A DNA stretch of 24,651 bases from Kiritimatiellia bacterium. GTDB lineage: Bacteria > Verrucomicrobiota > Kiritimatiellia > RFP12 > UBA1067. The notes beneath the pieces were generated by a model, which saw only the letters and a list, made by a program, of their open reading frames with translations, was not told the DNA's origin and searched no databases. A program made the position numbers and the translations under genes. Shown in pieces: positions 9,159 to 24,651 of the stretch. Positions within the stretch are counted from its first letter, which is position 1, and each line of letters starts with the position of its first letter. Location: assembly GCA_050949565.1 (NCBI GenBank), contig JBMNFY010000018.1, positions 1 to 24,651 on the forward strand. Direction: 5' to 3'.

Positions 9159-9207
9159 GGATCAGGAAAAGGGGTTAAAGGTTTTCAACGCGGGGATGCG
9201 GAGTACA

Positions 9208-9259
9208 GGGAGGGACGAGCGTCTGCTCGTCCGCGGGCAAGCAGACGCTTGCCCCTCCC
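9208..9259. repeat. REP family 1, intergenic copy
   Basis: Same three-way hairpin sequence as 2431-2481, with a 1-nt longer second loop. Confidence 0.85.
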
Positions 9260-9333
9260 GGCGCTCCGCGGGCCCGGAGGCCGCACACGTTCACAGCGCA
9301 GATGCAAGACTATTTGTGGCCGGGTTAGTAGGA

Positions 9334-10287: not shown

Positions 10288-10292
10288 AACCC

Positions 10293-11069
10293 CTATTCAA
10301 AAAGCAGTGCCGAGAGAATCGCTTTCACGCGAAGCTTGGAGTCGAAGGTCGGTCCGGACTCAATTCTGACATTGCGGAAGGTGAACACTTGGTTCTCCTC
10401 GAACACTGACTGGAAAAAGGTGTACAGGTGCTCGAAATCAACGTCGCATTCCATGCGGACGGGCAACTCCGAAAAAGTACGCTGTCCCTTGGCGTCGGTG
10501 TGAGTGACCGGCGGGAGCGGGTAAATCTCGACGAGACGCTGGATCTGCCGGTCGAGCGCCAAGTCGGCCAACTTTTCAACTGCCTTAAGCTGAAGCATGC
10601 GCGTACGGACAGCATCACCGCTGGTCAAGGTTTCGTCAAGGCCTAATTCCACTGGTAGCAACTGGATCTTCAACTCTTCGGACTTCTCCTGCAAGCGCTG
10701 GCGGATCTCATACAACTCGACCTTGTAATCAATGCGGTTGATTTCGGTGCTGCGCAGAACGGCCTGGTTGGGGAAGGCGGCCAAACGTTCCGCGATACGC
10801 GACCACTCGTTAGAAAGCTGCGTGAGGGTCGCGGTTTCATGGTCGGCGATCGCCTGCATATTGGCGATTGAGAGGTTGGCGTAACGGCTGCTCTCGAGTT
10901 GCGTACGCACGGAACGGTTGTTTTCCGCCATTTCGCGCTGGGGGAGCAGGACAAACCGGACAGTGCAAAACACGCTGACCACGATGAAAAGCATGATCAG
11001 CACGACCTGCACGCGTTCCGTCGCGAACAGCCGGAGGACTGAATTAAGGTTTAGGTTGGAAAGGGGCAT
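10293..11069 (-). CDS. PilO/GspM-like inner-membrane assembly protein
   Basis: TM helix, coiled coil and ELPVRMEC..FEHLYTFF C-terminal domain, downstream of pilMN. Confidence 0.7.
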   Translation of the reverse strand: MPLSNLNLNSVLRLFATERVQVVLIMLFIVVSVFCTVRFVLLPQREMAENNRSVRTQLESSRYANLSIANMQAIADHETATLTQLSNEWSRIAERLAAFPNQAVLRSTEINRIDYKVELYEIRQRLQEKSEELKIQLLPVELGLDETLTSGDAVRTRMLQLKAVEKLADLALDRQIQRLVEIYPLPPVTHTDAKGQRTFSELPVRMECDVDFEHLYTFFQSVFEENQVFTFRNVRIESGPTFDSKLRVKAILSALLFE

Positions 11070-11083
11070 GGTTTCAGGTATGA

Positions 11084-11281
11084 GGTTTCAGGGTTTCGGG
11101 GTTTCGGGGTTTCGGGGTTTCGGGGTTTCAGGGTTTCGGGGTTTCAGGGTTTCGGGGTTTCGGGGTTTCGGGGTTTCAGGGTTTCGGGATTTCAGGGTTT
11201 CGGGGTTTCAGGGTTTCGGGGTTTCGGGGTTTCGGGGTTTCGGGGTTTCGGGGTTTCAGGGTTTCGGGGTTTCAGGGTTTC
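11084..11281. repeat. Octamer array GGTTTC(G/A)G x ~25
   Basis: Direct reading shows 198 bp with period 8. One extra unit at 11070 abuts the pilO-like ATG. Confidence 0.95.
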
Positions 11282-11662
11282 TTTGAATTTTACGCCGGGG
11301 AAGTCCGATGAACGAAGGTGCTTGATGAAAGAAGACAGGGCACTTCCAATGCGGATCGTCAGGGTGGACAGGGTATCAAAAGTTTGCTGGTCAATGTAGT
11401 GGGCATCCAGTGCGACATACAAATGAGACCTGACCTCACCGGCTGATCCTTTCGCCTGAGACAAAAATTGAACGAACTCCCTGTTTCCGTCACGCTCGAA
11501 ACCCTCTGCGATATTGGCCATGATCGACACGGAAGCACTGCGAAGCTGATCACGCAATTTAAAATCACGGACAAAATCAGGAGATTGAACCATGGCGTAA
11601 ATGGTCTTGGTCAATTCGCGGGCTAACTGCCACGCCTCAATCTCTTCAAAGCGCTTGATCAT
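11192..11662 (-). CDS. Four helix bundle protein (23S rRNA IVS / S23-like family)
   Basis: RFEEIEAWQLA, DFKLRDQLRSASVSIMANIAEGFER, EFVQFLSQAKGSAGEVRSHLYVALD. The tail runs into the octamer array. Alternative starts at 11725 and 11740 lie in the upstream array. Confidence 0.9.
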   Translation of the reverse strand: MIKRFEEIEAWQLARELTKTIYAMVQSPDFVRDFKLRDQLRSASVSIMANIAEGFERDGNREFVQFLSQAKGSAGEVRSHLYVALDAHYIDQQTFDTLSTLTIRIGSALSSFIKHLRSSDFPGVKFKETLKPRNPETPKPRNPETPKPRNPETPKP

Positions 11663-11693
11663 TCTGAAACTCGACTCATTTCGGGGTTGCCCC

Positions 11694-11740
11694 TTGAAAC
11701 CAGAAACCAGAAACCTTGAAACCATGAAACCAGAAACCAT
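11694..11740. repeat. GAAACCA-type array, inverted relative to 11084-11281
   Basis: cttgaaaccagaaaccagaaaccttgaaaccatgaaaccagaaaccat. Confidence 0.85.
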
Positions 11741-11747
11741 TTCTCCT

Positions 11748-13493
11748 CTAATAGGGTCGTCTCACTTCGATCTCGATCACAAATCGTCTGAAATTGGGGA
11801 GCTTCTCACCCTCCAGCTCGGGGATGCCGGTTGGGGCGAGCACCTGGTCGTCGCTGCGCAGGTCGACCCGCACGATGTCGGGCGAGGTCTTGAGACGTTC
11901 AATCATCTCTCTGACGCTTTTCAGGCTCGGGTTGGAGGTGTAACCCTCCGCGATGAAGACGGCCGAGAGCGGATCAACCAGGTCCTTGCGCGGCGGCGGT
12001 TCCTTTTTGTCGGCCGTCGTCGGCGCGGCCGCTGTTGGGCGCAGCGTGCGGAAGAGCGAGAACGGGTTGCGCACGGCCGCCTGGGGCGTGTCGGCCTTGG
12101 TGTTCAGATCCTGCTCTTTCGGATTGTAGATGTTCTCGTCGCAAAACATCGTGATCCAGTCTTCGGGATCCACCGTGTGTGCGACGAGCGTCAACACCTC
12201 TCGCGCGAGCGGTCCGTTGAGGGTGGCCTGCGTGATCGGCACCGCGTTGCTCAGGACGGCGGCTTGTTGGGCGCGCAGATCCTGGATGTGTTTGTCGATC
12301 TGCTCGCGCCGCCTGAGCTGTTCGCGTTCCGCATCCAGCAAGGCGCCGTCGCGCCGCAGCAAGTAGACGCCAGTGGCGGAGTAGAGTGCCATTGTAGCGG
12401 TCAGAAAGACGGCGGCCGCGATCCACCACGGTTTTTGCGCACGGAACACTACCTCGTCCTTGAGGTCCTGCGGCAACAGCGAGAGCGTCGTCGTGCCCCG
12501 TCCCATCGCGGTGATCGCGAGGCCGAAGGCCATGTCGTAAACACCCGCATACTGCTGATAACTCTTGTCGATGCTCGGCAGTTCCGAGACGTGTTGAACC
12601 GGCAGGAACAGTTTGGCGGCGAGATACTCTTTAAGTCCTTTGAGTTGGGCGCCGCCGCCGGTGATCACGATGCGCGCGACGGTGAATTTACGGTCTTGGA
12701 AGGTGCTGCGGTAAACGCCCATGCAGGCGTTGAACTGCGAGATCCATCGGTCGGCTGCGAGGCGCAGCGGCTCGCAGCAGGCGTCGTTTTCGCGCAGTCC
12801 ACAATCGACATGTTTGCGCACTTCGGCCTGCACGGCCGGTAGGCCGGTGGTTTGCGCCACTGCATCCGTAAAGAGCTTGCCGCCCGCGGCGAGGGAACGC
12901 GCGAAGAGCAACCCGCTGTTGAGGCCGATGGCGACTTCAGTCTGCGTGTGGCCGATGCTCACATAGCAGTATGGCTCTTCACGCTCGCCGGCGAATGTTT
13001 CCATCGCGTTGTAGAGCGCGACCGGTGCGGAGATCAGGTCTGCGGGACGCAGGCTGTTGCGTCGCGTCGCTTGGACAACCTCCTTGATTGAGGAGGGACG
13101 CGCCATCGACATGATGTAGCGCCGGACGCCGGCTTCGAAGGGCGTTTCAAACGCGAAGACATCATACGCCATGTCATCACCGGCCATCTCGCTGAATTGG
13201 GCGATGTCCATGGCGGCGACCTGTTCGGGCGTACGCGGGTCGTTGGGCATGATGCGCCCACTCTGAAAGACGGTTTGCGAGCCCGGCAGGGCGATCGCGC
13301 AGAACTGCTTTGCAACCCCGAGCTTGTGCACCCAGGTGGCGATCAGCTTGTGGGGGTCTTCCTCATCGTCCATCGGCAGCGCAAGGGTCTCCGCGCGCGT
13401 CACGACCGGGCGGCTGCCGCGCAGCCCCACCCAGACAGCCCGCACGGAGCGGGAACCGACGTCAAAGGCGATCATCTGTTTGATTCGAGACAT
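11748..13493 (-). CDS. pilM: PilM-PilN fusion protein
   Basis: Actin-like IAFDVGSRSVR, SIGHTQT and ITGGGAQLKGL, then LSLLP + TM helix + coiled coil + PilN-like C-terminus. Confidence 0.85.
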   Translation of the reverse strand: MSRIKQMIAFDVGSRSVRAVWVGLRGSRPVVTRAETLALPMDDEEDPHKLIATWVHKLGVAKQFCAIALPGSQTVFQSGRIMPNDPRTPEQVAAMDIAQFSEMAGDDMAYDVFAFETPFEAGVRRYIMSMARPSSIKEVVQATRRNSLRPADLISAPVALYNAMETFAGEREEPYCYVSIGHTQTEVAIGLNSGLLFARSLAAGGKLFTDAVAQTTGLPAVQAEVRKHVDCGLRENDACCEPLRLAADRWISQFNACMGVYRSTFQDRKFTVARIVITGGGAQLKGLKEYLAAKLFLPVQHVSELPSIDKSYQQYAGVYDMAFGLAITAMGRGTTTLSLLPQDLKDEVVFRAQKPWWIAAAVFLTATMALYSATGVYLLRRDGALLDAEREQLRRREQIDKHIQDLRAQQAAVLSNAVPITQATLNGPLAREVLTLVAHTVDPEDWITMFCDENIYNPKEQDLNTKADTPQAAVRNPFSLFRTLRPTAAAPTTADKKEPPPRKDLVDPLSAVFIAEGYTSNPSLKSVREMIERLKTSPDIVRVDLRSDDQVLAPTGIPELEGEKLPNFRRFVIEIEVRRPY

Positions 13494-13534
13494 CTTTTTG
13501 GTTTCAGGGGTTCAAGGTTTCGGATCAAGGGGAT

Positions 13535-13662
13535 GGGAGGGACGAGCGTCTGCTCGTCCGCGGGCAAGCAGACGCTTGCCCCTCCCGGTGCTCCGCGAGC
13601 AGGCATGTGGGGGAGGGACGAGCGTCCGCTCGTCCGCGGGCAAGCAGACGCTTGCCCCTCCC
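13535..13662. repeat. Two tandem REP family 1 copies (13535-13586 and 13611-13662)
   Basis: Same hairpin sequence, intergenic between secretin and pilM. Confidence 0.85.
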
Positions 13663-13715
13663 GGTGCTAGTCTGGTTAACGTTTTTTCAGATTTCATGCT
13701 TGAGCATTCTCCCGA

Positions 13716-16007
13716 TCAGGGGGTTGCCGGGGCTTTCAGGATGTCGGGAACCTGCGCTTCGGCCGGCACGTCGAGGCCGTAGCGCTCGAAGTCGTTCAGC
13801 GGGATCAGCTCCTCGCCGATGTCGCTGATGAGCGTTGCGGTGACGAAGATCAGGATATTGTTAATTTTTTTCTCATTTGTTTTTGTACCAAATAAATTGC
13901 CGATGAAGGGGAGTTTTGACAGCCACGGGATACCACTGTCTTTGTCCTTTGCGCTCGTGTCGACGAGCCCGCCCAATACGACGGTTTCGCCGCTGCGTAC
14001 GACGGCCTCGGTCTCGATATATTGTCGGGAAAGAATAGGAATTTCAATGGCAGGTTCATTTTCCACGCTGTCTGCGCTGTCAAGGCTGCTCAACCGGTAT
14101 CTCTTCCAATCTTTGATGGAACTGATTTCGGGACGGAGCACCATTGTGATCGTTGAGAGATCTGCGCCGACACTCGGCGTTACGACGAGCGAATAGCCAG
14201 TCTCCACGATCGTGGGTCGATCATAATCATAGGTGACGTTGTCGCGCGAGTCGTTGTTGTTGTAGCCTCCGCTGGTCATGATATCGGTCTCAACTTCTTC
14301 GAAGTAGGAGGTGTCCTCGCCTACGCGGAAACGCGCCTCGCGGTTGTTGAGCGTGGTCACGCGAGGCACGACAATCATACGGCTTTTCCCGGATTCTTCG
14401 AGCGCTTTAAGCGTTGTTTGAAGTGCAGTGTTGCCTAACAAATATTGGAAATAAGCCTCTCCTGTCGCCGTCGAACCCATCCGACTTCCGTTAAGGAAAG
14501 CAGTACCCTGCAATTTCTTTTCTTGCATGTCTTTGATTTGGCGTTCAATCGCAATAATCTCTTCAACAGTGGCGTCTGGATCATTTTGATTTCTTCGAAG
14601 CTCGTTGATTGCCGTGCTACCGTCGCTGAGCGTTGTGGTAACGGGACGCTGGAAAAGCCATTCGATGCCGAGTTCGCGCAGGTCGGTGACGGTCGTGGTG
14701 ACGAAGCGCGCCTCGATCAGCACTTGCAGCGGACGCAGGTCCATCGCCGCGATCAGTTCTTCCACCAAGGCTAGGTTGTCCAACGTATTCTTGACAATCA
14801 GCGCGTGTACCTTGTCGTCAAACATAAAATCCGCGCCATCGGGCTGCGGCACGAAACGGTCGATGGCTTCCAGCAGGCCGACCTTGGGCTCGGCGCCAGG
14901 CTTCTGCTCCTGCTGCTGGTTACTGGATCTGCTGCTGTTGCGTTCTTCGGGCCCCTTGAAAAGAGACTGTCCCTGCGCGGACTTGCCGAGTTCAGAGCCG
15001 ACCAGCCCTTTGCGCAGCCGGTAGACGCGGGTCTTCATAGGGGGGACGCCGACCGCGGGCGGCTCTTTTTGCGTGATCCAGATCAGGTTGCTATAGACCG
15101 AAAAGCTGATGTCGAGGTTCTTATCGAAGTACTCCAACATCTCGATCAACGGCGTGTTTTCAAAGCGAGCCGTGATCAGTTTGGTACTGACGATTTCGCT
15201 GTCGGCGATGTAGTTGATGTTGGTGGACTTTTTGATCTCGGCGATGATGGCGTTGACGTCGGCGTTTTCGAGGGTCAGGCTCACCGGCTGCTGCAACGCC
15301 TTCTGCATCTCGGTGAGCGGCGTGACGACTGCGTTGGTTTCGCCCATCACGTGTTGCTTCTGGCGGTAGCGTTGCGGCATGGCGGCGAAACCGAGGGCGT
15401 CGGCTGTGCCGAGGTCAACGGTGGCTTCGGCCCTCTTGTTGGCGGCCGTGAGCCGTTCCTCGGCCAGGCGCAGGTTGATGCGGCGCTGCAAGTCGGCGAG
15501 GCCGACCGCCTCGGGGTCCTTGCGCGTGATGTCGATGCAGGCGGAGATTGCCTCCTGCGTCTGGCCGGCCACAAAGAGCGCTTCGGCAGCGGCCACCGCC
15601 GGCGAGAGGTCGCGCGTCATGCGGGCGCGCAACTGGGCGAGACCCACGGCGTCTGGCCTTTCTTCGGCCAGGGCGTTGCAAGCGGTGAGTGCCTCTTGCC
15701 GTTGACCGTTCTCGAAGAGCCGTTCAATTTCCAGCACTTCGGGCGAAAGACGACGGGCCACACGGCTTTGCAGCTCTTGCAGGCCGGCATTGACCGCCGC
15801 GTTGGTCGAGGGCGCCACGCTGGCTACGATGAAAGAGCGCAGGTAACCCTGCTCGAACAGACGCTCGGCCTCGGCGACTTCAGGCTCTTTCTCGGTCGGC
15901 CCTTCTCCGTACCACGGGAGTTGCGAACTGGTGCAGCCGATAACGATGGCCAGCGATGAGGCCAGAAGGAGAGGAACGGCGGTTGTGGCGATGTTTTTCA
16001 TAAGCAT
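13716..16007 (-). CDS. Secretin (PilQ/GspD family), probable lipoprotein
   Basis: LAIVIG-C lipobox-like signal, QVLIEARFV...ELGIEW, PRVTTLNNREA, VRSGETVVLGGL and GIPWLSKLPFIGNLF. Confidence 0.92.
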   Translation of the reverse strand: MLMKNIATTAVPLLLASSLAIVIGCTSSQLPWYGEGPTEKEPEVAEAERLFEQGYLRSFIVASVAPSTNAAVNAGLQELQSRVARRLSPEVLEIERLFENGQRQEALTACNALAEERPDAVGLAQLRARMTRDLSPAVAAAEALFVAGQTQEAISACIDITRKDPEAVGLADLQRRINLRLAEERLTAANKRAEATVDLGTADALGFAAMPQRYRQKQHVMGETNAVVTPLTEMQKALQQPVSLTLENADVNAIIAEIKKSTNINYIADSEIVSTKLITARFENTPLIEMLEYFDKNLDISFSVYSNLIWITQKEPPAVGVPPMKTRVYRLRKGLVGSELGKSAQGQSLFKGPEERNSSRSSNQQQEQKPGAEPKVGLLEAIDRFVPQPDGADFMFDDKVHALIVKNTLDNLALVEELIAAMDLRPLQVLIEARFVTTTVTDLRELGIEWLFQRPVTTTLSDGSTAINELRRNQNDPDATVEEIIAIERQIKDMQEKKLQGTAFLNGSRMGSTATGEAYFQYLLGNTALQTTLKALEESGKSRMIVVPRVTTLNNREARFRVGEDTSYFEEVETDIMTSGGYNNNDSRDNVTYDYDRPTIVETGYSLVVTPSVGADLSTITMVLRPEISSIKDWKRYRLSSLDSADSVENEPAIEIPILSRQYIETEAVVRSGETVVLGGLVDTSAKDKDSGIPWLSKLPFIGNLFGTKTNEKKINNILIFVTATLISDIGEELIPLNDFERYGLDVPAEAQVPDILKAPATP

Positions 16008-16066
16008 GCGTTGTTTCGTTTTTCGTTCATACCGGACACGGCGAGCCGCGGCCAGTCATCAAAGGG

Positions 16067-16906
16067 TTAATCACGTGATTCTCCGGGATGCAGCGTGCCC
16101 TCCCACCAGGGCGGCCCGACAAAGACATTACCGGCGTAAGCGACATTGAGCGTGATCCACTGCCGGGTGGCACGGCGGCTGGTGCGGTCGACATAGGCGA
16201 CACCATAGAGCCGCATGTCGCGCCAGTGGTGGTAGCAGCGGATGATCGGGATGCGCGACGCGCTGTACGGCAGGGGATAACCGGCGGCGTCCTTTCCGCT
16301 GTTGCTGTCGCCGAACGACATTTGGGCGACTTTATACGTCCTCAGCGTTGAATAGTCGCCGTCCGGCCAATTACTCTCTTTGCCCCATCCGTGGGTAGCG
16401 ACTGAGAACTCATAAAAATAACTGCAACACTCGACCGCACGGTTGCGTCTGTTGTCCGAATTTGATTCATTGTCGCGAAACTTGTTGGCGTCCAGTGCGC
16501 TGCTGTCGCGGATCGCCGAGACAAAATCTTCAGGCCTGAGCCGGTCTCGTCCGCCGTTGCTGTCGGCCCGGCAGACGTACATCGACCGGTCGTCGACGTA
16601 TTCCGGATAGAGGTTTGAGAGCCAGTCCGGCGTGCGGTTGTCGTGCTCGCCGCGGTAGATGGTCAGCGCCACGCCGAATTGCCGCAGGTTGGACTTGCAG
16701 TTGGCTTGCCGCGCCTGCTTGTAGCCGGACCTCACCGAGACCACCAGCGCGGAACTTAAAATGCCGAGGATCGCGATCACCACCATCAACTCAAGCAAAG
16801 TAAAACCGCGCCGCGATTGGCATGATGTCTGCGAACTATCCAGACGATCGGCCCGATGCGTGCGAGCGCGGCATGAAAAGGTACCAGCTATGTGAGAGCG
16901 TGCCAT
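16067..16906 (-). CDS. Prepilin-type N-terminal cleavage/methylation protein (PVC DUF1559-like)
   Basis: RRG|FTLLELMVVIAILGIL and ARQANCKSNLRQFGVAL.IY. ATG 16906 is preferred because the TTG at 16936 lies in the promoter. Confidence 0.85.
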   Translation of the reverse strand: MARSHIAGTFSCRARTHRADRLDSSQTSCQSRRGFTLLELMVVIAILGILSSALVVSVRSGYKQARQANCKSNLRQFGVALTIYRGEHDNRTPDWLSNLYPEYVDDRSMYVCRADSNGGRDRLRPEDFVSAIRDSSALDANKFRDNESNSDNRRNRAVECCSYFYEFSVATHGWGKESNWPDGDYSTLRTYKVAQMSFGDSNSGKDAAGYPLPYSASRIPIIRCYHHWRDMRLYGVAYVDRTSRRATRQWITLNVAYAGNVFVGPPWWEGTLHPGESRD

Positions 16907-16920
16907 TTTGCTAATGAATC

Positions 16921-16936
16921 GCAGATATCGTGCCAA
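16921..16936 (-). promoter_or_regulatory. Sigma54 (-24/-12) promoter of the pilus operon
   Basis: Minus strand TTGGCACGATATCTGC gives TGGCACG-N4-CTGC with exact GG-N10-GC spacing, immediately upstream of the first operon gene. Confidence 0.7.
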
Positions 16937-17126
16937 AAGCGTCGGTGCTAAGGCAAGCGCTCAGGTTGGGTTTTTGTTCGGAAAGCGAGGGAATCCGGGC
17001 GGCCGCAAGCCGCCGGGGTCATGAAGCATGGATACAGTAGTAGGCAGATGGCGGGATAAATACGACGCAAAGGTGCGTTGTCGACAACACAGTCGCGAGG
17101 TCGGAATCGGAGGCTTGCGTTTACGG

Positions 17127-19277
17127 ATGGCCTCCGGCTGGCTCGGGGGATTGTTGGTCGTTGCACTGGCCGCTTCAGCGGTTGCGCAGGCGCCGTCCGC
17201 TGTGAAGGCGCGCCCGGCTTGGAATGTGGCGGAGGCTACGGCGCGGCTGATCGTTACAAAAGAACAGGATGATTTCTTTTTAACGCGCCTGCCGGCGCGG
17301 ACCGGTGACAAGCCGGTGGCTGCGGTACGCGCGTTTGTTTTGACCAACGAGGTGATGACGCGGGTAGTCTGGTCGGACGAGAGTCAGGTGACCGTGATGG
17401 TTGACGTGCGCGACGCCAAGCGCGGGCAGTTGGTCAAGATTTATGCGGTGCCGGGCGACAAGCGGGCCGAGCCGGGGCCCTCCACCCTTGTGGACCCGAC
17501 GCCGTTGCGCGGGCGCGCCCAGCGTACGGCGGGCATGGACCTGCCGCGCTCGTTGGCGGACGTGCAGATGTTGGAGACACGCGTCGATGGCCGTCCGATC
17601 TGGTTCACGGTGAGCGATTCGAGCAAACTGCCCACCACCTTCAAGGATTGGTATCGCGGTGATTGGACGCGCAAGAACCACTTGGTTGACCTGCAGACGT
17701 GGCTGGTGATTCCCGTTGCCGGCCGTTACCGCTTCGGTTTGGCCGGTGTGGCATCAGCCTGGCTGCTGATCGACGGCCGCCCGGTCTTGGAGCATCCGGC
17801 ACACCAGCCGTACGACAAATGGACCTCCGGCGAGGATGTGCTGCTTGAGCCCGGTCTGCGCCGCTTGCAGGTGCGTACGGTCTGCCGTCAGGAGATCGAC
17901 ACCGGGCTCGCCTGGAAACGCGCAGATGAGCCGGGCGCGGCAACCAACATGGTCATGCTGACCGGCGGCGACTTACGCGAAGGCCGCTGGGAAACGCTCG
18001 ACCGCATCGTACATCCCTTCGCGACCGCCGAGAGCGGCGCCGCGTATCGTTTTGCGGGCGTCGACGAGGTGTTCGTGCCTTTCACGCTCAAGGACGGTTC
18101 ATCCTGCTGGGGCACGAATCATGTTGCGCATTGGCGTGTGCGCACAGGTCAGGAGTTGGGAAGTGGCGGGACGTTGGCGACCGTCTTCAGAAAGAGCCAA
18201 TTACCGGCCGGCGTGACGGTGACCGCTGCGGCGGCCAGTGGCGAGACAGCGGGCTATGAGGCTGTCTTGGCCTATGACGGTCCGGTGTGGTCCGAAGCCG
18301 AGGTGTCGACACGCATCACCGGTATCCCCGCTGCCTGTTACGTGGATGACCGGGTGCATCCGATCATCCGTGTCCGCACGACGGCCGCCGATGGTTTGCC
18401 GTATGATTTGGTTTGCGACTTTGAGTTTACCGACGGTTCGCGCACGAACCGGACCGACCAACTGGTGACGGACAGGGGCTGGGCGCGCGTCCATCTCAAC
18501 GAGATGGAGGCCGGGACGCTGGCGCGCCTCTCTTGGTCGCTGCGCCATCACGATGTCGAGGTCAACCACGGCGCGGCGCGTTTCCTGCGCGAGCCGTTCA
18601 CCTGCCTGCCGGACACGGTTTCTGGCGAGACGCTCAAGTGCGGCGATGAATTTGTTGTGCTGGTCGCCTCCAAAGCATCGCGCGGCGATCCGGTGGAGCC
18701 GACGGACGTCCTTTCCGGCACGAATGGCGTGGTGCTGCTGGACGGTTTTATTTATGATGTCGCCGCAGATCGCGATGATGCACTGCCCTGGCGGGTGCTG
18801 GACCTGCGGGAGATTGAGGAGCACGAAGCCGCCTCGGGCACATCGTTGCTTTTGCCGCTTGCCTCGTTGAATGACATTGTTCCGGCGTCGGCGGCGGTGG
18901 TCGCCCCGTCGTTGCAGGCACTCAGCCGTGAGGGGGGGACCGACGGCTTTGAGCGCCGTCTGTCAGCTTTGACCGGTCTGCTTGCTGGTCCGGCTGGTGG
19001 CAGTCCGCGCGTGGTGCTGGTCGTGCCGCCGCCATTCGACGTGCTGCCGGGTTGCGGTTGCCAGCCGGGCGCGGAGCCCTGTCCGCATGCGGCAGAGGCG
19101 CGGCCGTACGCCGAGATGGTGGTGCGCGTCGCGGATGCTCACGGCGTCGAGACGGTTGATCTCTTCACCGCCTTCCAGACGTTTGACCACGGTGAGCCGC
19201 TGGTATCCAACGGTCGGCTCACGCCTGCGGGCGCGGCCTTGGCCGAAAGCCTGATCCAAAAGAAGCTCGGATACTAA
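17127..19277 (+). CDS. Large exported hypothetical protein (possible PA14-like and SGNH-like domains)
   Basis: Long ORF with signal peptide ...LAASAVAQA, WLVIPVAGRYRF..AWLLIDGRPV (PA14-like) and C-terminal VVLVVPPP...VDLF...LTPAG (SGNH-like). The start is uncertain (17028 or 17127). Confidence 0.7.
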   Translation: MASGWLGGLLVVALAASAVAQAPSAVKARPAWNVAEATARLIVTKEQDDFFLTRLPARTGDKPVAAVRAFVLTNEVMTRVVWSDESQVTVMVDVRDAKRGQLVKIYAVPGDKRAEPGPSTLVDPTPLRGRAQRTAGMDLPRSLADVQMLETRVDGRPIWFTVSDSSKLPTTFKDWYRGDWTRKNHLVDLQTWLVIPVAGRYRFGLAGVASAWLLIDGRPVLEHPAHQPYDKWTSGEDVLLEPGLRRLQVRTVCRQEIDTGLAWKRADEPGAATNMVMLTGGDLREGRWETLDRIVHPFATAESGAAYRFAGVDEVFVPFTLKDGSSCWGTNHVAHWRVRTGQELGSGGTLATVFRKSQLPAGVTVTAAAASGETAGYEAVLAYDGPVWSEAEVSTRITGIPAACYVDDRVHPIIRVRTTAADGLPYDLVCDFEFTDGSRTNRTDQLVTDRGWARVHLNEMEAGTLARLSWSLRHHDVEVNHGAARFLREPFTCLPDTVSGETLKCGDEFVVLVASKASRGDPVEPTDVLSGTNGVVLLDGFIYDVAADRDDALPWRVLDLREIEEHEAASGTSLLLPLASLNDIVPASAAVVAPSLQALSREGGTDGFERRLSALTGLLAGPAGGSPRVVLVVPPPFDVLPGCGCQPGAEPCPHAAEARPYAEMVVRVADAHGVETVDLFTAFQTFDHGEPLVSNGRLTPAGAALAESLIQKKLGY

Positions 19278-19351
19278 AAGCACTGCTCGGGTTTATTTAA
19301 CGCAGAGGCGCAGAGACGCAGAGATTTTTTGGGGGGCGCTGCTTGGGTTTG

Positions 19352-20732
19352 TTTAACGCAGAGGCGCAGAGTTTTTTTGGGGGTGGCTGCGGGTTTTCGC
19401 ATCCACAGATTACACAGATTACGCAGATTTTTTAGGGGGCAGGGATCGGGTTTATTTCACCACGAAGGCACGAAGGGCACGAAGGTTTTTTGGGGGGCAT
19501 GGCTGCGGGGTTTTTTATCCACAGATTACACAGATTACGCATATTTTTGGGAGCGGGGAGCGGGTTTATTTAACCACGGAATACACGGAACACACGGAAA
19601 GGCATGGCTCGGCTTTTCATGAAGTTTCATGTGTTTCATGGTTCGGGCTTATTTAACGCAGAGGCGCAGAGTTTTTTTGGGGGTGGCTGCGGGTTTTCGC
19701 ATCCACAGATTACACAGATTACGCAGATTTTTTAGGGGGCAGGGATCGGGTTTATTTCACCACGAAGGCACGAAGGGCACGAAGGTTTTTTGGGGGGCAT
19801 GGCTGCGGGGTTTTTTATCCACAGATTACACAGATTACGCATATTTTTGGGAGCGGGGAGCGGGTTTATTTAACCACGGAATACACGGAACACACGGAAA
19901 GGCATGGCTCGGCTTTTCATGAAGTTTCATGTGTTTCATGGTTCGGGCTTATTTAACGCAGAGGCGCAGAGTTTTTTTGGGGGTGGCTGCGGGTTTTCGC
20001 ATCCACAGATTACACAGATTACGCAGATTTTTTAGGGGGCAGGGATCGGGTTTATTTCACCACGAAGGCACGAAGGGCACGAAGGTTTTTTGGGGGGCAT
20101 GGCTGCGGGGTTTTTTATCCACAGATTACACAGATTACGCATATTTTTGGGAGCGGGGAGCGGGTTTATTTAACCACGGAATACACGGAACACACGGAAA
20201 GGCATGGCTCGGCTTTTCATGAAGTTTCATGTGTTTCATGGTTCGGGCTTATTTAACGCAGAGGCGCAGAGTTTTTTTGGGGGTGGCTGCGGGTTTTCGC
20301 ATCCACAGATTACACAGATTACGCAGATTTTTTAGGGGGCAGGGATCGGGTTTATTTCACCACGAAGGCACGAAGGGCACGAAGGTTTTTTGGGGGGCAT
20401 GGCTGCGGGGTTTTTTATCCACAGATTACACAGATTACGCATATTTTTGGGAGCGGGGAGCGGGTTTATTTAACCACGGAATACACGGAACACACGGAAA
20501 GGCATGGCTCGGCTTTTCATGAAGTTTCATGTGTTTCATGGTTCGGGCTTATTTAACGCAGAGGCGCAGAGTTTTTTTGGGGGTGGCTGCGGGTTTTCGC
20601 ATCCACAGATTACACAGATTACGCAGATTTTTTAGGGGGCAGGGATCGGGTTTATTTCACCACGAAGGCACGAAGGGCACGAAGGTTTTTTGGGGGGCAT
20701 GGCTGCGGGGTTTTTTATCCACAGATTACACA
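19352..20732. repeat. 300-bp tandem repeat, 4.6 identical units before the IS110 insertion
   Basis: Units start at 19352, 19652, 19952, 20252 and 20552, and each is made of six short-repeat modules. Confidence 0.95.
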
Positions 20733-20882
20733 AGTATGTGGGTAGTCAAGTCCCTTTGTCGCTTTCGTCGGTTTTGTCCATTTCTTTTTCTTTGACAGTG
20801 GATTGTGGACAGACGCGCCTCTGTCCGGCTTTACGATAGGTTTACACTTTCTTCTTGAAGTCTAAGAAGAAAGCGGGTAGCA

Positions 20883-21275
20883 ATGAAGGACAGAATGAGG
20901 TACAGTGAAGCGTTCAAACTCAAGGTAATGGAGGAGCTGAGGGATGCAAAATGGAAGTCAGTTCAGGAGGCCGCCAAGGCATATGGAATTTCGGAGATGT
21001 CGGTCTACAACTGGATGCACAAGCTCGGCTTCGAACATCTGAAAGGAAGGCTCGTTTACGTGAAGACACGGACGGAATTGGATCGGATCAAGGAGCTCGA
21101 GGCGGAGAACCTCCGCCTCAAGCAGAGCCTCGCGGACGAGGTGCTCGACAACAGGCTGAACCAGGCGTTTCTTCGGATCGCCTGCCGGCGGGCCGGGACG
21201 ACCGTCGAAGATCTAAAAAAAAAGAATGGTGGGATGCCGCCCACGACACCCACGAGCGGGATGGCCTGCCAGTGA
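20883..21275 (+). CDS. IS3 transposase OrfA (HTH + leucine zipper)
   Basis: RYSEAFKLKV, AAKAYGISEMSVYNW and RIKELEAENLRLK. Confidence 0.9.
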   Translation: MKDRMRYSEAFKLKVMEELRDAKWKSVQEAAKAYGISEMSVYNWMHKLGFEHLKGRLVYVKTRTELDRIKELEAENLRLKQSLADEVLDNRLNQAFLRIACRRAGTTVEDLKKKNGGMPPTTPTSGMACQ

Positions 21276-22102
21276 CGAGGCTTTGCGCCAGATGTGGAAA
21301 GAGCACGGTCGCCTACTACAAGGGCCGCAAGGCGCGCGAGAAGCGCGTCGGGCGGGAAGACGTCATTCTTCTGCTGGCCCGTCGCGAACGCATTGTCAAC
21401 CCGATGGCCGGCTGTAAGAAAGTGCTTTTCGCCATCCGGCCGGAAATGGCCGAGGCGGGGATCTCGATGGGCGTCAACAGCTTCTACAAGCTGATGAAGG
21501 AGAACGGCATGATGGTGCCGAAACGCAAGAAATACAGCTGCAAGACGACGCGGCAGGACAAGTCTCTGGCGCCTTCGCCGAATCTGGTCAAGGACATGGA
21601 GATCAATGCTCCCGATCAGGCGGTGTGCTCGGACATCACGTACATCTACACGGAAGAGGGGTTCCTGTTCCTTTCACTGATGATGGACATGTTCGTGCGC
21701 GACATCGTCGGCTGGGCGGTCTGCGACTCGCTGAAGGCCGAGGGCCCCCTGGCCGCGCTGGAGATGGCGAGCCGTGCGCTGAAGCCGGGAGCGAAACCCG
21801 TGGCGCACTCCGACCGCGGCTGCCAGTACGCTTCGCACGCCTACCGCGAGGCGCTCGAGAAGCTCGGCTGGCGGTCCAGCATGACGGAAGAACTCCACTG
21901 CTACGAGAATGCGATGGCGGAGCGCCTGAACGGCATTCTCAAGCATGAGTATTTCCTCAACACGCACTTCAAGACGAAGAAGGAAGCGATCAAGGCGATC
22001 AAAGAGGCGATCCGGATCTACAACACGCGCAGGCTGCACGAGAAGTGTGGCTTCAAGACGCCGGCGGCGTTCCGTGAGGAGACGATGAAAAAAGTTGCAT
22101 GA
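21215..22102 (+). CDS. IS3 transposase OrfB (DDE), expressed by -1 frameshift
   Basis: A9G slippery run at 21215-21224 followed by a GTGGG/CCCAC hairpin, in the -1 frame. Motifs SDITY, HSDRGCQY, ENAMAERLNGILKHE and YNTRRLH. Confidence 0.9.
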   Translation, partial: KKKEWWDAAHDTHERDGLPVTRLCARCGKSTVAYYKGRKAREKRVGREDVILLLARRERIVNPMAGCKKVLFAIRPEMAEAGISMGVNSFYKLMKENGMMVPKRKKYSCKTTRQDKSLAPSPNLVKDMEINAPDQAVCSDITYIYTEEGFLFLSLMMDMFVRDIVGWAVCDSLKAEGPLAALEMASRALKPGAKPVAHSDRGCQYASHAYREALEKLGWRSSMTEELHCYENAMAERLNGILKHEYFLNTHFKTKKEAIKAIKEAIRIYNTRRLHEKCGFKTPAAFREETMKKVA

Positions 22103-22258
22103 GGTCGGCGGCCGCCGCCCCCCCCGGGGGGGGCGCACCCCTTGAAGGGAAGCACATCAATGTTCAACCAACCATCAAGAACCAAGTGTTAACCTGGAGC
22201 CGTGACTTGACAGCAAACGCCAAAAGGCGCGCCTGTGCGGTTCGGGAGCCCGCCTTTT

Positions 22259-23455
22259 TCAGGATTGGGCTGCCGGCGCGGAACTTTCCGGGGGATAGAC
22301 CTGCGAGTGGAGCGCCTCGACGAACTCGGCGGGCTTTTTGTAGCCCAGCGCGGCGAGGTGTTCGCGCCCGACGGCGGTGGCGAGCTTGGCGAGCTTGCGG
22401 CGGAAGGACTTCTCGTCCTTCCGGTCGGGGACCGGGTGGCCCATCAGGATGTGCCAGGCGCGGACGACCATTTTCCGGGCCACGGCGCAGGTGACGACGT
22501 TGGCGGGCTTCCCGGAGGCGATCTTGCGGTACGCCCACTTCGCCATGTCGTCTTTGCCGTGGCGCAGGAAGCTCTTCGCCGCCTCGACCATGAGCGCCTT
22601 GAGGTCGGGCCGTCCATGGCTGCTGAGCTTGCGCCGCCCCCCGGCCTTCCCGCTTTCCGCGACGGACGGGTTGAGGCCGACGTAGCTGACCAGCTTCTTG
22701 GGGTTCGCGAAGCGGGACGCGTCCTCGACGAAGGTGAACAGGGCGAAGGCGACGATGAAGCGCACGCCGAGCATCTGCATCAGCCTCGTCATCCCGGGCG
22801 TTTCCGAGACGATGCGTGCGATGAGCTTCTCGTAGCGGCCGCGCAGATCCATGCTGTGCTCGTATTCGAGCAGGAGCGTCTCGAGGTGGAACTTCTCCTC
22901 CTGCGTCCAGCCGTAGCCGGCCACCTCCGCGCGCACGGCATCGGCCTTCCTGTGGAACGACTCCCTGGGCAGCTTCAGCCCGTGGCCGCTGCAGAAGGCC
23001 CAGATGCGGTTGGACCAGCGCGTCGAGTCCTTCACGGCGTTGCGGTGGCCGAAGAAGATGTCGCGCCAGTGCTGGTGGCGCGGGGAGGGGACGTGGACGC
23101 GGCGCGTCCCGCCCCGGGCGTGGGCGAACGCGAGGTTCTGCGCGTCGATGCGGTCGTTGACCCGGTCGGAGCGGGCCCGCCCCGCGAGCGTGTCGGAGGC
23201 GAGCACCTCCGCGCGCTGCCCGACGGCCCCGAGGCGGCGGACGATGGAGAAGGCGTTCGTGGACGCCTCCAGCACGGTCAGCGCCCCCGCCGGGACCTGC
23301 TTCCTGTAGGTGTTTTCGAGCGAGTCGAGGTCGGTCGTGATGTTCTTGATGACGACGGGGTCCGAGCCGAGCCGCCACCGGGTGACGCACAGGGAGATCT
23401 TTTCGCTGTGCGCGTCCATCCCGACCAGAATTGTCTCTTGTGCTGTGTCGGTCAT
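22259..23455 (-). CDS. IS110-family DEDD transposase/recombinase
   Basis: VGMDAH, VLEAS, NDRIDA and FANPKKLVSYVGLNPSVAESG. ATG 23455 has AGGA upstream. Confidence 0.93.
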   Translation of the reverse strand: MTDTAQETILVGMDAHSEKISLCVTRWRLGSDPVVIKNITTDLDSLENTYRKQVPAGALTVLEASTNAFSIVRRLGAVGQRAEVLASDTLAGRARSDRVNDRIDAQNLAFAHARGGTRRVHVPSPRHQHWRDIFFGHRNAVKDSTRWSNRIWAFCSGHGLKLPRESFHRKADAVRAEVAGYGWTQEEKFHLETLLLEYEHSMDLRGRYEKLIARIVSETPGMTRLMQMLGVRFIVAFALFTFVEDASRFANPKKLVSYVGLNPSVAESGKAGGRRKLSSHGRPDLKALMVEAAKSFLRHGKDDMAKWAYRKIASGKPANVVTCAVARKMVVRAWHILMGHPVPDRKDEKSFRRKLAKLATAVGREHLAALGYKKPAEFVEALHSQVYPPESSAPAAQS

Positions 23456-23513
23456 TTCCTTTATCCTGTATGGCGCTGTCGCACGTTGGGGCAGACGGGT
23501 CTGCATGAAGCAT

Positions 23514-23712
23514 ACAAGTATACGGGGTCTTTCGCCCCAAGCAGGTGGTTTCCGTCGGCGCTCAAACAGATTGGCGGGCAGTGAGCCCAATGTAATCTTC
23601 GAGCGTCTCCCATGCGGACAGCAAGTGGGTTACCAAGACCACCTGCTGCTTCGCATCATACCTCAACGTGCGGCAGTCTTTAAAGCCCCGTATACACGGT
23701 TCTTCTCAGAAC
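23514..23712 (-). ncRNA. Predicted IS110 bridge/seek RNA
   Basis: Nested 10-bp stems at 23518-27/23686-95 and 23540-49/23638-47. The inner loop carries ACAGATT (23566-72) and TGTAATCT (23591-98), matching opposite strands of the insertion target. The RNA ends are inferred. Confidence 0.7.
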
Positions 23713-23728
23713 GCCACCCACATTACCA

Positions 23729-23915
23729 ACAGATTACGCATATTTTTGGGAGCGGGGAGCGGGTTTATTTAACCACGGAATACACGGAACACACGGAAAG
23801 GCATGGCTCGGCTTTTCATGAAGTTTCATGTGTTTCATGGTTCGGGCTTATTTAACGCAGAGGCGCAGAGTTTTTTTGGGGGTGGCTGCGGGTTTTCGCA
23901 TCCACAGATTACACA
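23729..23915. repeat. Continuation of the 300-bp array between the two IS110 copies
   Basis: Resumes in register and matches the rest of the unit. Confidence 0.9.
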
Positions 23916-24651
23916 AGTATGTGGGTAGTCAAGTCCCTTTGTCGCTTTCGTCGGTTTTGTCCATTTCTTTTTCTTTGACAGTGGATTGTGGACAGACGCG
24001 CCTCTGTCCGGCTTTACGATAGGTTTACACTTTCTTCTTGAAGTCTAAGAAGAAAGCGGGTAGCAATGAAGGACAGAATGAGGTACAGTGAAGCGTTCAA
24101 ACTCAAGGTAATGGAGGAGCTGAGGGATGCAAAATGGAAGTCAGTTCAGGAGGCCGCCAAGGCATATGGAATTTCGGAGATGTCGGTCTACAACTGGATG
24201 CACAAGCTCGGCTTCGAACATCTGAAAGGAAGGCTCGTTTACGTGAAGACACGGACGGAATTGGATCGGATCAAGGAGCTCGAGGCGGAGAACCTCCGCC
24301 TCAAGCAGAGCCTCGCGGACGAGGTGCTCGACAACAGGCTGAACCAGGCGTTTCTTCGGATCGCCTGCCGGCGGGCCGGGACGACCGTCGAAGATCTAAA
24401 AAAAAAGAATGGTGGGATGCCGCCCACGACACCCACGAGCGGGATGGCCTGCCAGTGACGAGGCTTTGCGCCAGATGTGGAAAGAGCACGGTCGCCTACT
24501 ACAAGGGCCGCAAGGCGCGCGAGAAGCGCGTCGGGCGGGAAGACGTCATTCTTCTGCTGGCCCGTCGCGAACGCATTGTCAACCCGATGGCCGGCTGTAA
24601 GAAAGTGCTTTTCGCCATCCGGCCGGAAATGGCCGAGGCGGGGATCTCGAT
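23916..24651 (-). mobile_element. Second IS110::IS3 composite, truncated by the window edge (IS3 starts at 24005)
   Basis: Identical to 20733 onward at offset 3183. Confidence 0.88.
24066..24458 (+). CDS. IS3 OrfA, second copy (OrfB runs off the window)
   Basis: Identical to 20883-21275. Confidence 0.9.
   Translation: MKDRMRYSEAFKLKVMEELRDAKWKSVQEAAKAYGISEMSVYNWMHKLGFEHLKGRLVYVKTRTELDRIKELEAENLRLKQSLADEVLDNRLNQAFLRIACRRAGTTVEDLKKKNGGMPPTTPTSGMACQ

What the first reader, a model, noticed from the sequence alone, without database searches (positions are those of the whole stretch)
20721..23925. IS110 element inserted twice at the same 9-mer repeat motif
Seen: junctions ACAGATTAC-ACA|AGTATG at 20732 and 23915, and TTACCA|ACA-GATTAC at 23728. 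The two insertions are in different modules of the unit (preceded by TTATCC vs CGCATCC) but at the same base, so they are not a simple tandem duplication. Known: IS110 members such as IS621 target REP repeats. Inference: this element specialises on the ACAGATTAC repeat, and the array offers about two sites per unit.
Basis: partly seen in the sequence, partly recalled or inferred. Interest (0 to 1): 0.8.

Follow-up and report, generated by a model that had tools for sequence, protein, structure and literature searches.

The report
RNA-guided IS110 element in repeat array
A guide-RNA-carrying IS110-family mobile element, itself interrupted by a second (IS3-family) mobile element, sits at least twice in a repeat array, always next to the short motif that its own guide RNA spells out; it is a clear but fairly ordinary example of a known mechanism.

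Summary
The 2,996-bp insert (20733-23728) is not a plain IS110. It is an IS110-family element on the minus strand, 1,612 bp when intact, with a 1,391-bp IS3-family IS nested in its right end. The intact form occurs in 4 of 4 metagenome runs laid and in two metagenome contigs.

Its upstream non-coding region folds into a conserved RNA. The two hypervariable strands of one internal loop match the flanks in this element and in about 10 relatives. Here they read AAUCUGU and AGAUUACA, which is the GTAATCTGT/ACAGATTAC motif. Motif specificity is therefore supported. It is also backed by a 25-nt left-end remnant at a third locus and by a 98% relative in which one guide base and its target base changed together.

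The guide's exact site is the heptamer-spaced variant. The array's nonamer site carries 2 extra bases. The motif belongs to a genome-wide repeat family.

The second copy is seen for only 736 bp. No left-end junction in module b exists in the assembly, so a tandem duplication of [IS + 187 bp] fits at least as well as a second insertion.

Verdict: a new member of a known kind.

The parts
19280..20732 (.). Left part of the tandem array. It has 300-bp units, each with two ACAGATTAC-ACAGATTAC modules: a (TTATCC...) and b (CGCATCC...). It ends at the ACA that abuts the IS.
20733..20821 (-). Terminal 89 bp of the IS110-family right end (copy 1). It holds the subterminal inverted repeat 20734-20745 and a -35-like TTGACT (reverse complement of 20744-20749).
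   Evidence: Contiguous with 22213 onward in intact copies, with CGGGCGG between the two parts. The ends were read.
20822..22212 (+). Nested IS3-family IS, 1,391 bp. orfA is 20883-21275, the A9 slippery run is 21215-21223, and the orfB frame runs to 22102. The ends read TGTCCGG...TTGACA. It replaces 7 bp of the IS110 right end.
   Evidence: (NF033516, 226.9 bits, cut-off 160)
22213..22258 (-). Proximal part of the IS110 right end, between the transposase stop codon and the IS3 insertion.
22259..23455 (-). IS110-family RNA-guided transposase, 398 aa.
   Evidence: NF033542, 170.2 bits, cut-off 140, residues 11-338; PF02371; IS621 transposase, E 7e-4, residues 207-339
23456..23728 (-). Left end and upstream non-coding region, which encodes the structured guide (bridge/seek) RNA. 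It holds the subterminal inverted repeat 23714-23727 and a -10-like TAATGT (reverse complement of 23720-23725).
   Evidence: z = -3.98; 10-sequence alignment, 64 pairs, 6 with compensatory changes
23560..23604 (-). Target-binding internal loop. Its layout is: stem GCUC; 5' strand GAAGAUUACAUU; distal stem-loop GGGCucacuGCCC; 3' strand GCCAAUCUGUUU; stem GAGC.
23729..23915 (.). 187 bp of array between the two copies. It runs from the right half of module a to the left half of module b.
23916..24651 (-). Copy 2: the same 89-bp IS110 right end (23916-24004) followed by the first 647 bp of the same IS3 (24005-24651, + strand). It is cut by the contig end.
   Evidence: 100% identity over 736 bp

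Best explanation
The region 20733-23728 is an IS110-family insertion sequence on the minus strand. It has IS1111-like traits: a subterminal inverted repeat of about 12 bp, and a guide RNA in which the top-strand match lies 5' of the bottom-strand match. Unlike most IS1111-type elements, its long non-coding region lies upstream of the transposase.

The intact form is 1,612 bp. Here an IS3-family IS (1,391 bp) has landed in the right end, replacing 7 bp and leaving both IS110 termini, the transposase and the guide RNA untouched.

The RNA from the left end carries an internal loop with two guide strands.
- The 3' strand (AAUCUGU-U) is identical to the flank next to the left end, so it pairs with that flank's bottom strand.
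- The 5' strand (AGAUUACA) is complementary to the top strand of the flank next to the right end.
Together they specify AATC-TGT-AATCT, which is two head-to-tail copies of the ACAGATT(AC) motif. That is why the ends always abut this motif. This step is shown by sequence and by covariation across relatives. It is not shown biochemically.

The nonamer-spaced sites of this array are near-cognate. The left half pairs in register. The right half pairs perfectly only if 2 bases are skipped.

The two copies share the same IS3 insertion and the same 7-bp loss, so the composite was copied after the IS3 landed. The copying event is inferred, not shown. The most economical reading is a direct tandem duplication of [IS + 187 bp]. 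It would arise by recombination between the IS right-end junction and the equivalent half-site in module b of a sister chromosome. Either the IS recombinase acting on a half-match or the 16-bp identity ATCCACAGATTACACA could mediate this.
For: Composite nature:
- The IS3 part alone recurs at C10 and C5 with other flanks.
- Intact IS110 with CGGGCGG in place of the IS3 is seen in L028 (100% aa), L022 (98% aa) and in single contigs of 1,449-1,650 nt in 4 of 4 runs from 4 studies.

Family assignment:
- NF033542 scores 170.2 bits against a cut-off of 140, and PF02371 matches.

Guide RNA:
- The left end folds with z = -3.98.
- In the 10-element alignment the scaffold is 82% identical on average, while the two loop strands are hypervariable. 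The basal and distal stems keep pairing through compensatory changes: columns 138/186 read GC 4, GU 3, AU 3; columns 157/167 read GC 9, AU 1.
- Many invariant G-U pairs argue for transcription in the transposase sense.

Guide against flank (11 non-redundant elements):
- Left flank: own pairs 4.1 of 6 variable positions against 1.9 of 6 in 84 cross pairs (9 elements with a left flank).
- Right flank: 0.80 against 0.49 of positions paired, wobble counted (10 elements, 98 cross pairs). L023, L024 and L025 reach 6 of 6, and L031 4 of 4.

Natural reprogramming:
- L022 differs from this element in the 5' strand by U to G. Its target repeat reads GTCATC instead of GTAATC.

Independent sites:
- A remnant of the last 25 nt or so of the left end abuts ACAGATTTTTTT at C17:1658991-1659018.
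- L028 has the right end at another register of module b.
- In run X10 the flank lacks bases 23911-23912. This gives the exact site TGTAATCTGTGGAT, which exists 4 times, all empty, in this genome.

Circle-junction promoter (read from the sequence):
- TTGACT in the right end, a 17-nt spacer if TGT is counted once, and TAATGT in the left end. Both hexamers are conserved in the relatives.

Duplication reading:
- L028 shows that C18 and C5 flank one locus.
- The only other left-end junction in the assembly (C5) is again module a. No module-b left-end junction exists.
Against: - No RNA or activity data were obtained.
- The donor-binding part of the RNA could not be assigned. Only AUACUUGU, identical to the right end plus TG-T, stands out. 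The UGGUAA loop does not covary with the ends in distant relatives.
- The right-flank match of this element, of L028 and of L022 is poor in the register of the crossover: 2 pairs plus 1 wobble of 6, and 1 of 6 for L022. It is perfect only 2 nt further on.
- The left flanks of L022 and L024 match their guides at only 2 of 6 positions.
- All full copies in this assembly lie in one array. The 4 exact sites, and 6 nonamer sites outside the array, are empty. Local duplication, not repeated targeting, may therefore explain the copy number.
- The link from the end of C18 to C5 is inferred, not read. C5 holds an odd IS3-IS3 junction in which the second IS3 lacks its first 7 nt, so it may be a mis-join.
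- The assembly is 92% complete in 21 contigs.
- Pfam's N-terminal IS110 domain was not reported at E <= 0.001.
Confidence: 0.75

Rival explanations
1. Two independent RNA-guided insertions. The composite IS110::IS3 excised as a 3-kb circle and inserted a second time, at the same base of the motif in module b.
For: - Both termini, the transposase and the guide region are intact, and both copies carry the identical IS3 with the 7-bp loss.
- The module-b site has the same 14-mer, AATCTGTGTAATCT, as the occupied module-a site.
- A preprint reports IS110 elements carrying cargo (10.64898/2026.08.14.744561; abstract and section 8 read).
Against: A simple insertion in module b needs a left-end junction followed by ACAGATTACGCAG. 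The assembly has only two left-end junctions, and both are followed by GCAT, which is module a. The right-end junctions vary between contigs and runs while the left-end junction is always the same. That pattern fits rearrangement at the right end better than repeated whole insertions. The missing junction could still lie in unassembled sequence.
Confidence: 0.3
2. Assembly artefact. There is one IS copy in the array, and the second junction with its 736-bp stub comes from repeat mis-assembly at a contig end.
For: The contig ends inside a repeat. C5 shows an implausible IS3|IS3 junction with 7 nt missing from the second IS3. The genome is metagenome-like, with 21 contigs.
Against: The module-b|right-end junction is a unique sequence that must come from reads. 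Contigs in which the right end abuts module-b-like flanks occur in two independent runs: X4 with 3 differences, and X10 with 2 bases left out. The depth of the IS110 part exceeds that of the unique flank in 4 of 4 runs (64 against 20, 15 against 8, 41 against about 30, 70 against 36). This is only a weak hint, because contig depth is not copy number.
Confidence: 0.1
3. The association with the motif is passive. One chance insertion into the array was carried along by array expansion, and the loop-to-flank matches are coincidence.
For: The array units are 99-100% identical and clearly expand and contract. L028 has fewer units on both sides.
Against: - A remnant at a third locus abuts the motif.
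- An element in a different genomic context shows a compensating change in guide and target (L022).
- About 10 relatives with unrelated flanks match their own loop strands and not each other's.
- The exact site is used in X10.
Confidence: 0.05

Closest known systems
IS621 (IS110 group) and its bridge RNA (Durrant et al. 2024, PMC11208160; Hiraizumi et al. 2024, PMC11208158; passages read)
   Same: - A DEDD/Ser-type transposase with the guide RNA encoded upstream in the left end.
- A target loop built as stem, guide, stem-loop, guide.
[quoted passage not shown]
- A promoter split between the right end and the left end.
- Natural targets in dispersed intergenic repeats.
   Different: - The order of the two guides in the loop is reversed. 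Here the top-strand-pairing guide is 5'; in IS621 it is 3'.
- Both guides are long, 8-11 nt.
- The subterminal inverted repeat is about 12 bp, against 2-3 bp in IS621.
- Only residues 207-339 align with IS621 (E 7e-4).
- The donor-binding part lies in a multi-branch region, not in a clean second internal loop.
IS1111-type elements and their seekRNA, for example ISEc11, ISPa11, ISKpn4; exception ISMtsp17 (Siddiquee et al. 2024, PMC11187229; passages read)
   Same: Subterminal inverted repeats of 11-13 bp. The top-strand complement lies 5' of the bottom-strand match. The two matches overlap in the target. Close relatives show natural reprogramming.
   Different: The long non-coding region is upstream of the transposase here. 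It is downstream in nearly all IS1111-type elements, and the paper names ISMtsp17 as an upstream exception. The position of this transposase in the family tree was not tested.
ISPpu9 and ISPpu10 of Pseudomonas putida, which target REP-type repeats (PMC12288879, search listing only; 10.64898/2026.03.19.712850, abstract only)
   Same: An IS110-family element restricted to one family of dispersed intergenic repeats, and associated with local amplification.
   Different: The target here is a short direct tandem repeat, not a palindromic REP with a stem-loop. The array unit folds only weakly as DNA (z = -2.05).
Expanded and tandemly duplicated IS110 loci, and half-match recombination (preprints 10.64898/2026.08.14.744561, abstract and section 8; 10.64898/2026.08.31.748434, abstract)
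   Same: Tandem duplication of whole IS110 modules at one locus, foreign DNA inside the element, and boundaries that match only one half of the guide.
   Different: The cargo here is only another IS. The half-match step is inferred from the junctions and has not been observed.

Membership tests
IS110 family (ISfinder sense) | DEDD/RuvC-like plus Tnp-domain transposase | tested here: met
   NF033542 'IS110 family RNA-guided transposase' scores 170.2 bits (cut-off 140) over residues 11-338. PF02371 has E 8.7e-17. Pfam's N-terminal IS110 domain was not listed at E <= 0.001.
IS110 family (ISfinder sense) | Catalytic serine of the Tnp domain (S241 of IS621) | tested here: inconclusive
   In the phmmer alignment to chain 8wt6_A, the query's AESG aligns with the chain's YESG. 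That this serine is S241 rests on my own residue count, which has a 2-residue offset, and was not verified.
IS110 family (ISfinder sense) | Long structured non-coding region whose loop strands match the target flanks (bridge/seek RNA) | tested here: met
   No Rfam family matched the left end at E <= 1.
IS110 family (ISfinder sense) | Promoter formed by joining the right and left ends in the circle | tested here: inconclusive
   Read by eye only: TTGACT in the right end, a 17-nt spacer, TAATGT in the left end. Joined sequence was not given to a tool, and no circle or transcript was observed.
IS110 family (ISfinder sense) | Site-specific insertion without long terminal inverted repeats | tested here: met
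   All junctions lie at the motif or a variant of it.
IS1111 subgroup | Subterminal inverted repeats of 11-13 bp | tested here: met
   GTATGTGGGTAG (20734-20745) against the reverse complement of 23714-23727, GGTAATGTGGGTGG: one indel and one or two mismatches. The repeat is conserved in relatives, and it changes on both ends together in L033, L036 and L038.
IS1111 subgroup | Long non-coding region downstream of the transposase | tested here: not met
   The upstream region is 273 nt. The intact right end is 142 nt.
IS1111 subgroup | Top-strand complement 5' of the bottom-strand match in the RNA | tested here: met
   compared with the passages of PMC11187229 read.
IS1111 subgroup | Transposase falls in the IS1111 clade | not tested
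   No named reference sequences were at hand. Plasmid hits are all below 31% identity and annotated only as 'IS110 family transposase'.
IS3 family (the nested element) | orfA (HTH) and orfB (rve DDE) joined by a -1 frameshift at an A run | tested here: met
   PF01527 on orfA; PF00665, PF13683 and PF13333 on orfB. NF033516 scores 226.9 bits (cut-off 160). The A9 run is at 21215-21223.
IS3 family (the nested element) | Target duplication of 3-5 bp | tested here: not met
   The flanks are CTC/GCA here, AGG/CCG on C10 and GCA/(IS3) on C5. Here 7 bp of the host DNA are replaced.

The most novel reading that the evidence does not exclude
This guide RNA works on sites in which the right-hand half-site is displaced by 2 bases from the crossover (TG-NG-TAATCT). 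Selection maintains that displaced register: the 98% relative L022 changed the guide base that pairs with the displaced half-site of its own repeat. The same one-sided recognition, at the right-end junction, builds direct tandem arrays of the IS inside short-repeat arrays. If so, this would be a natural case of bulge-tolerant, half-site bridge recombination that remodels repeat arrays.
Probability: 0.3. Interest if true: 0.55.

Novelty: new member of a known kind. Interest (0 to 1): 0.4.

Why it matters
- It gives a clean natural example of how a bridge/seek RNA ties an IS to one family of dispersed short tandem repeats in an uncultured bacterium from anaerobic digesters and landfills.
- It comes with a ready series of about 10 naturally reprogrammed guides on one conserved scaffold.
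- It shows an IS1111-like guide order combined with an upstream RNA gene.
- Near-cognate site use and right-end rearrangements are visible directly in genomes.
- For annotation: the 97-aa ORFs that repeat in every array unit are probably artefacts of the repeat, and the 3-kb insert should be annotated as two nested ISs.

Tried and rejected
- I first thought the DNA left of the IS3 on C5 was a diverged IS110 right end. A local alignment scored 21 against 15.4 +/- 2.1 (maximum 26) in 300 shuffles, so I rejected this.
- I considered that the RNA is made from the opposite strand. I rejected this because the loop-flank wobble pairs and the invariant G-U pairs of the stems would become C-A.
- I considered that the reversed guide order is new. 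I rejected this after reading that it is the IS1111-type order.
- I tried to assign the donor-binding guides. UGGUAA (identical to the left-end start) and ACCCAC do not covary with the changed ends in L033, L036, L038 and L013. Only AUACUUGU stays as a candidate.
- Rfam gave no family for the left end. The only hits were chance-level matches to MIR825 in the array and to the histone stem-loop.
- The sigma-70 scan found one internal site, TTTAAA-18-TATGAT, in the left end, against 1.8 expected in shuffles. I treat this as not significant.
- The plasmid search for named relatives gave only hits below 31% identity.
- The hypothetical non-overlapping site (left half plus right half without the shared TGT) occurs 0 times in the genome and in the loci.
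- A 36-nt, 92% match at C17:1108240 is GC-rich coding sequence and was set aside as chance.
- In one search no listed contig bridges the IS110/IS3 junctions, and several array bins have no cover. I draw no conclusion from either, because 672 pieces were not shown.
- Supplementary files of the papers were not opened. The ISfinder-wide tables of Siddiquee et al. and Durrant et al. may already list close relatives of this element.


Full report
**1.

- The window is a whole 24,651-bp contig (C18) of a 21-contig, 92%-complete assembly.
- From 19345 a 300-bp unit is repeated 4.6 times at 99% identity.
- Each unit has two modules, a and b, each containing ACAGATTAC-ACAGATTAC.
  - The 18-mer ACAGATTACACA|AGTATG occurs twice in the assembly, at 20721 and 23904.
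  - The left-end junction 17-mer occurs twice, at 23721 and at C5:12382.
- The two right-hand contexts differ: module a against module b.
- The 187 bp between the copies is the normal array register.

**2. What the insert is**

ORFs and family searches show two mobile elements, not one.

- On the minus strand, 23455-22259 encodes a 398-aa protein.
  - It passes NCBIfam's 'IS110 family RNA-guided transposase' model (170.2 bits, cut-off 140) and Pfam PF02371.
  - Its only solved relative is the IS621 transposase (E 7e-4, residues 207-339).
- On the plus strand, 20883-22102 encodes an IS3-type orfA/orfB pair (NF033516, 226.9 bits, cut-off 160) with an A9 run at 21215-21223.
- A search of the genome with the two halves separates them.
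  - The IS3 part (20822-22212, 1,391 bp, ends TGTCCGG...TTGACA) recurs with other flanks on C10 and C5.
  - The first 89 bp of the insert (20733-20821) occur only here, twice.
- Metagenome contigs L028 (transposase 100% identical) and L022 (98%) carry the IS110 without the IS3. There the 89 bp continue through CCGCCCG (IS orientation) into 22213 and onward.
- Contigs of four runs from four studies (anaerobic digester, biogas, bioreactor, landfill) show the same intact element, with CGGGCGG between 20821 and 22213, in 4 of 4 runs.
- So the IS110-family element is 1,612 bp when intact. Here it is 2,996 bp (20733-23728), because an IS3 replaced 7 bp of its right end.
- No IS3 copy in this genome shows a target duplication.

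**3. Why the ends abut the motif**

- The 273 nt upstream of the transposase fold far better than shuffles (z = -3.98).
- I aligned this region from 10 elements with 44-100% identical transposases: the window's own plus 9 loci.
  - The scaffold is strongly conserved.
  - Two short stretches are hypervariable.
- In the consensus fold these stretches are the two strands of one internal loop.
  - A basal stem (columns 137-143/181-187) closes it.
  - A distal stem-loop (columns 155-159/165-169) caps it.
  - Both stems keep pairing through compensatory changes.
- 6 of 64 predicted pairs show double changes. Many invariant G-U pairs fit the transposase strand only.
- I parsed the loop strands and the flanks of 13 elements. 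I dropped two redundant ones: L028 (same guide and left flank as the window) and L030 (identical to L018).
  - The 3' strand equals the flank next to the left end: 4.1 of 6 variable positions in own pairs (9 elements) against 1.9 of 6 in 84 cross pairs.
  - The 5' strand is complementary to the flank next to the right end: 0.80 against 0.49 of positions, wobble counted (10 elements, 98 cross pairs).
- Clean cases:
  - L025: 6 of 6 on both sides.
  - L026: 6 of 6 on the left; 5 plus 1 wobble on the right.
  - L023: 6 of 6 on the right.
  - L017: 5 of 6 on the left; 5 plus 1 wobble on the right.
- Poor cases:
  - The left flanks of L022 and L024: 2 of 6 each.
  - The left flank of L031: 3 of 6.
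  - The right flanks of the window's element and of L022 in the crossover register (see section 5).
- For this element the strands read GCCAAUCUGUUU and GAAGAUUACAUU. These are the two halves of GTAATCTGT-GTAATCTGT.

**4. Independent support for motif specificity**

- (a) At C17:1658991-1659018, a third locus, the last 25 nt or so of the left end survive and abut ACAGATTTTTTT.
- (b) L028 is the same chromosomal locus in another sample, with the unique DNA of C18 on one side and of C5 on the other. Its single intact IS has the left end at module a and the right end at the first nonamer of module b, a junction not seen in the window.
- (c) L022 sits in unrelated DNA at a TGCGTCATCTG repeat. Its 5' loop strand has G where this element has U. 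This restores pairing with GTCATCT. It is one of about nine differences in 273 nt.
- (d) In 4 of 4 runs the contig that carries the left end stops after exactly 7 flank bases, ACAGATT. I read this, by inference, as branching into several contexts that share only the 7 bases the guide specifies.
- (e) In run X10 the right-end flank lacks bases 23911-23912. This gives TGTAATCTGTGGAT, the exact complement of the 5' strand in register.

**5. Cognate and near-cognate sites**

- Left and right matches overlap by TGT. Here the ACA/TGT triplet is present on both sides of the insert.
- The guide-coded site is AATC-TGT-AATCT, that is, heptamer spacing (ACAGATTACAGATT).
  - It occurs 4 times in this genome, all empty.
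  - A non-overlapping version occurs 0 times.
- The array offers AATC-TGT-GTAATCT.
  - The left half pairs in register (7 nt plus the first base of the IS).
  - The right half pairs at only 2 positions plus 1 wobble of 6 in register, but at 6 of 6 when 2 bases are skipped.
  - The same holds for L022, and by eye for L028.
- Eight other relatives pair in register.
The 14-mer AATCTGTGTAATCT occurs twice per unit, and a TGCG variant once more. These sites are near-cognate, however.
- They are also not special to this array. The modules belong to a genome-wide family of short-tandem-repeat mosaics with hundreds of BLAST hits, and 50 sites of the form AATCTG-N-GTAATCT exist.

**6. One insertion or two?**

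- Both copies carry the identical IS3 and the identical 7-bp loss (100% over 736 bp). The composite was therefore copied after the IS3 landed.
- An independent insertion in module b must leave a left-end junction followed by ACAGATTACGCAG. None exists in the assembly. The only other left-end junction (C5) is again module a, followed by an intact module b.
- C18 and C5 flank one locus. The simplest layout is therefore:
  - array - a|IS|a - 187 bp - b|IS|a - array.
- That layout is what a direct tandem duplication of [IS + 187 bp] gives if the exchange lies at the IS right end.
- Two routes could produce the exchange.
  - The 16 bp ATCCACAGATTACACA shared by modules a and b could serve homologous exchange.
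  - The IS recombinase could recombine its right-end junction with the half-site in module b.
- Preprints report tandem duplication of whole IS110 modules and 'half-match' recombination (abstracts and one section read).
- This step is inference. The join of C18 to C5 was not read. C5 also contains an unexplained IS3|IS3 junction in which the second IS3 lacks its first 7 nt.

**7. Comparison with known systems**

[quoted passage not shown] Subterminal repeats are 2-3 bp.
- Here the order is the reverse and the subterminal repeat is about 12 bp. Both are the stated hallmarks of IS1111-type elements and their seekRNAs.
- Those elements nearly always carry the RNA gene downstream of the transposase. 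Here it is upstream, as in the named exception ISMtsp17.
- Distant relatives (L033, L036, L038) changed both subterminal repeats together.
- The donor-binding part lies in a multi-branch region. This agrees with Durrant et al.'s remark on IS1111 orthologues. I could not assign it.
- The right end holds TTGACT and the left end TAATGT. Joined in a circle they are spaced 17 nt apart, like the junction promoters described for the family. I read this by eye only.

**8. Verdict**

- This is a new member of a known kind, with three mildly unusual traits:
  - an IS1111-like RNA placed upstream of the transposase;
  - use of 2-nt-displaced sites;
  - a nested IS3 carried along in the copy.

Noticed in passing
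window 19280-20732 and 23729-23915; genome-wide, e.g. C17:778469-781554, C17:1-1741, C17:1380562-1382699, C17:1052912-1055236: The 300-bp unit is a mosaic of sub-modules of about 50 bp. Each is a short 6-9-mer repeated 2-3 times (ACAGATTAC, CACGGAA, CACGAAGG, TTTCATG, GCAGAG) followed by a T run and a G-rich stretch. BLAST of one unit finds hundreds of related pieces on nearly all contigs, often as tandem arrays with other periods. The flanks of the related ISs in other organisms show the same kind of short repeats ending in CTGTG(G).
   Followed up: partly
window 20714-20722 and every module a: Module a contains TTATCCACA. From memory this is the consensus DnaA box. It occurs once per 300-bp unit, just upstream of the IS target. 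Its significance was not tested.
   Followed up: no
G000 C5:9473-9500: Two IS3 copies lie head to tail, with the second lacking its first 7 nt (...GACTTGACA|CTTTACG...). This is either an aberrant IS3 dimer junction or a mis-join of two loci. The 8 kb to its left is unrelated to the array locus.
   Followed up: partly
window 20822/22212; C10:227035-228425; C5:8099: None of the IS3 copies shows a target duplication, and in the window the insertion replaced 7 bp (CGGGCGG). This is unusual for the IS3 family.
   Followed up: partly
window 23655-23684 (minus strand): A promoter-like TTTAAA-18-TATGAT lies inside the left end. The TATGAT part is invariant in the 10 aligned relatives. It could start a shorter guide RNA just before the conserved core. 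Alone it is not significant (1 site found, 1.8 expected).
   Followed up: no
window 23670-23690 and 23500-23535 (minus strand), alignment A1: The 5' segment (U)AUACGGGG, the local GGGG of GGGGCGAAAGACCCC, and the 3' CCCCGUAUAC change together in L022 and L013. The CCCC stretch may therefore have two alternative partners.
   Followed up: no
locus L024: Its left flank (GGATTATTGT) does not fit its own guide (UUUUCGUG). It resembles the guide of L025 (CCUUAUUG), while its right flank fits its own guide. This is possibly a one-sided rearrangement.
   Followed up: no
window 19329-20795: Five head-to-tail ORFs of 88-97 aa, one per array unit, are probably artefacts of the repeat.
   Followed up: no
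window 7440-16936: Upstream genes include a T2SS/T4P ATPase (PF00437), a PilM-like protein, a secretin and a prepilin-type N-methyl protein. The 749-aa ORF just before the array (17028-19277) has no Pfam match.
   Followed up: partly
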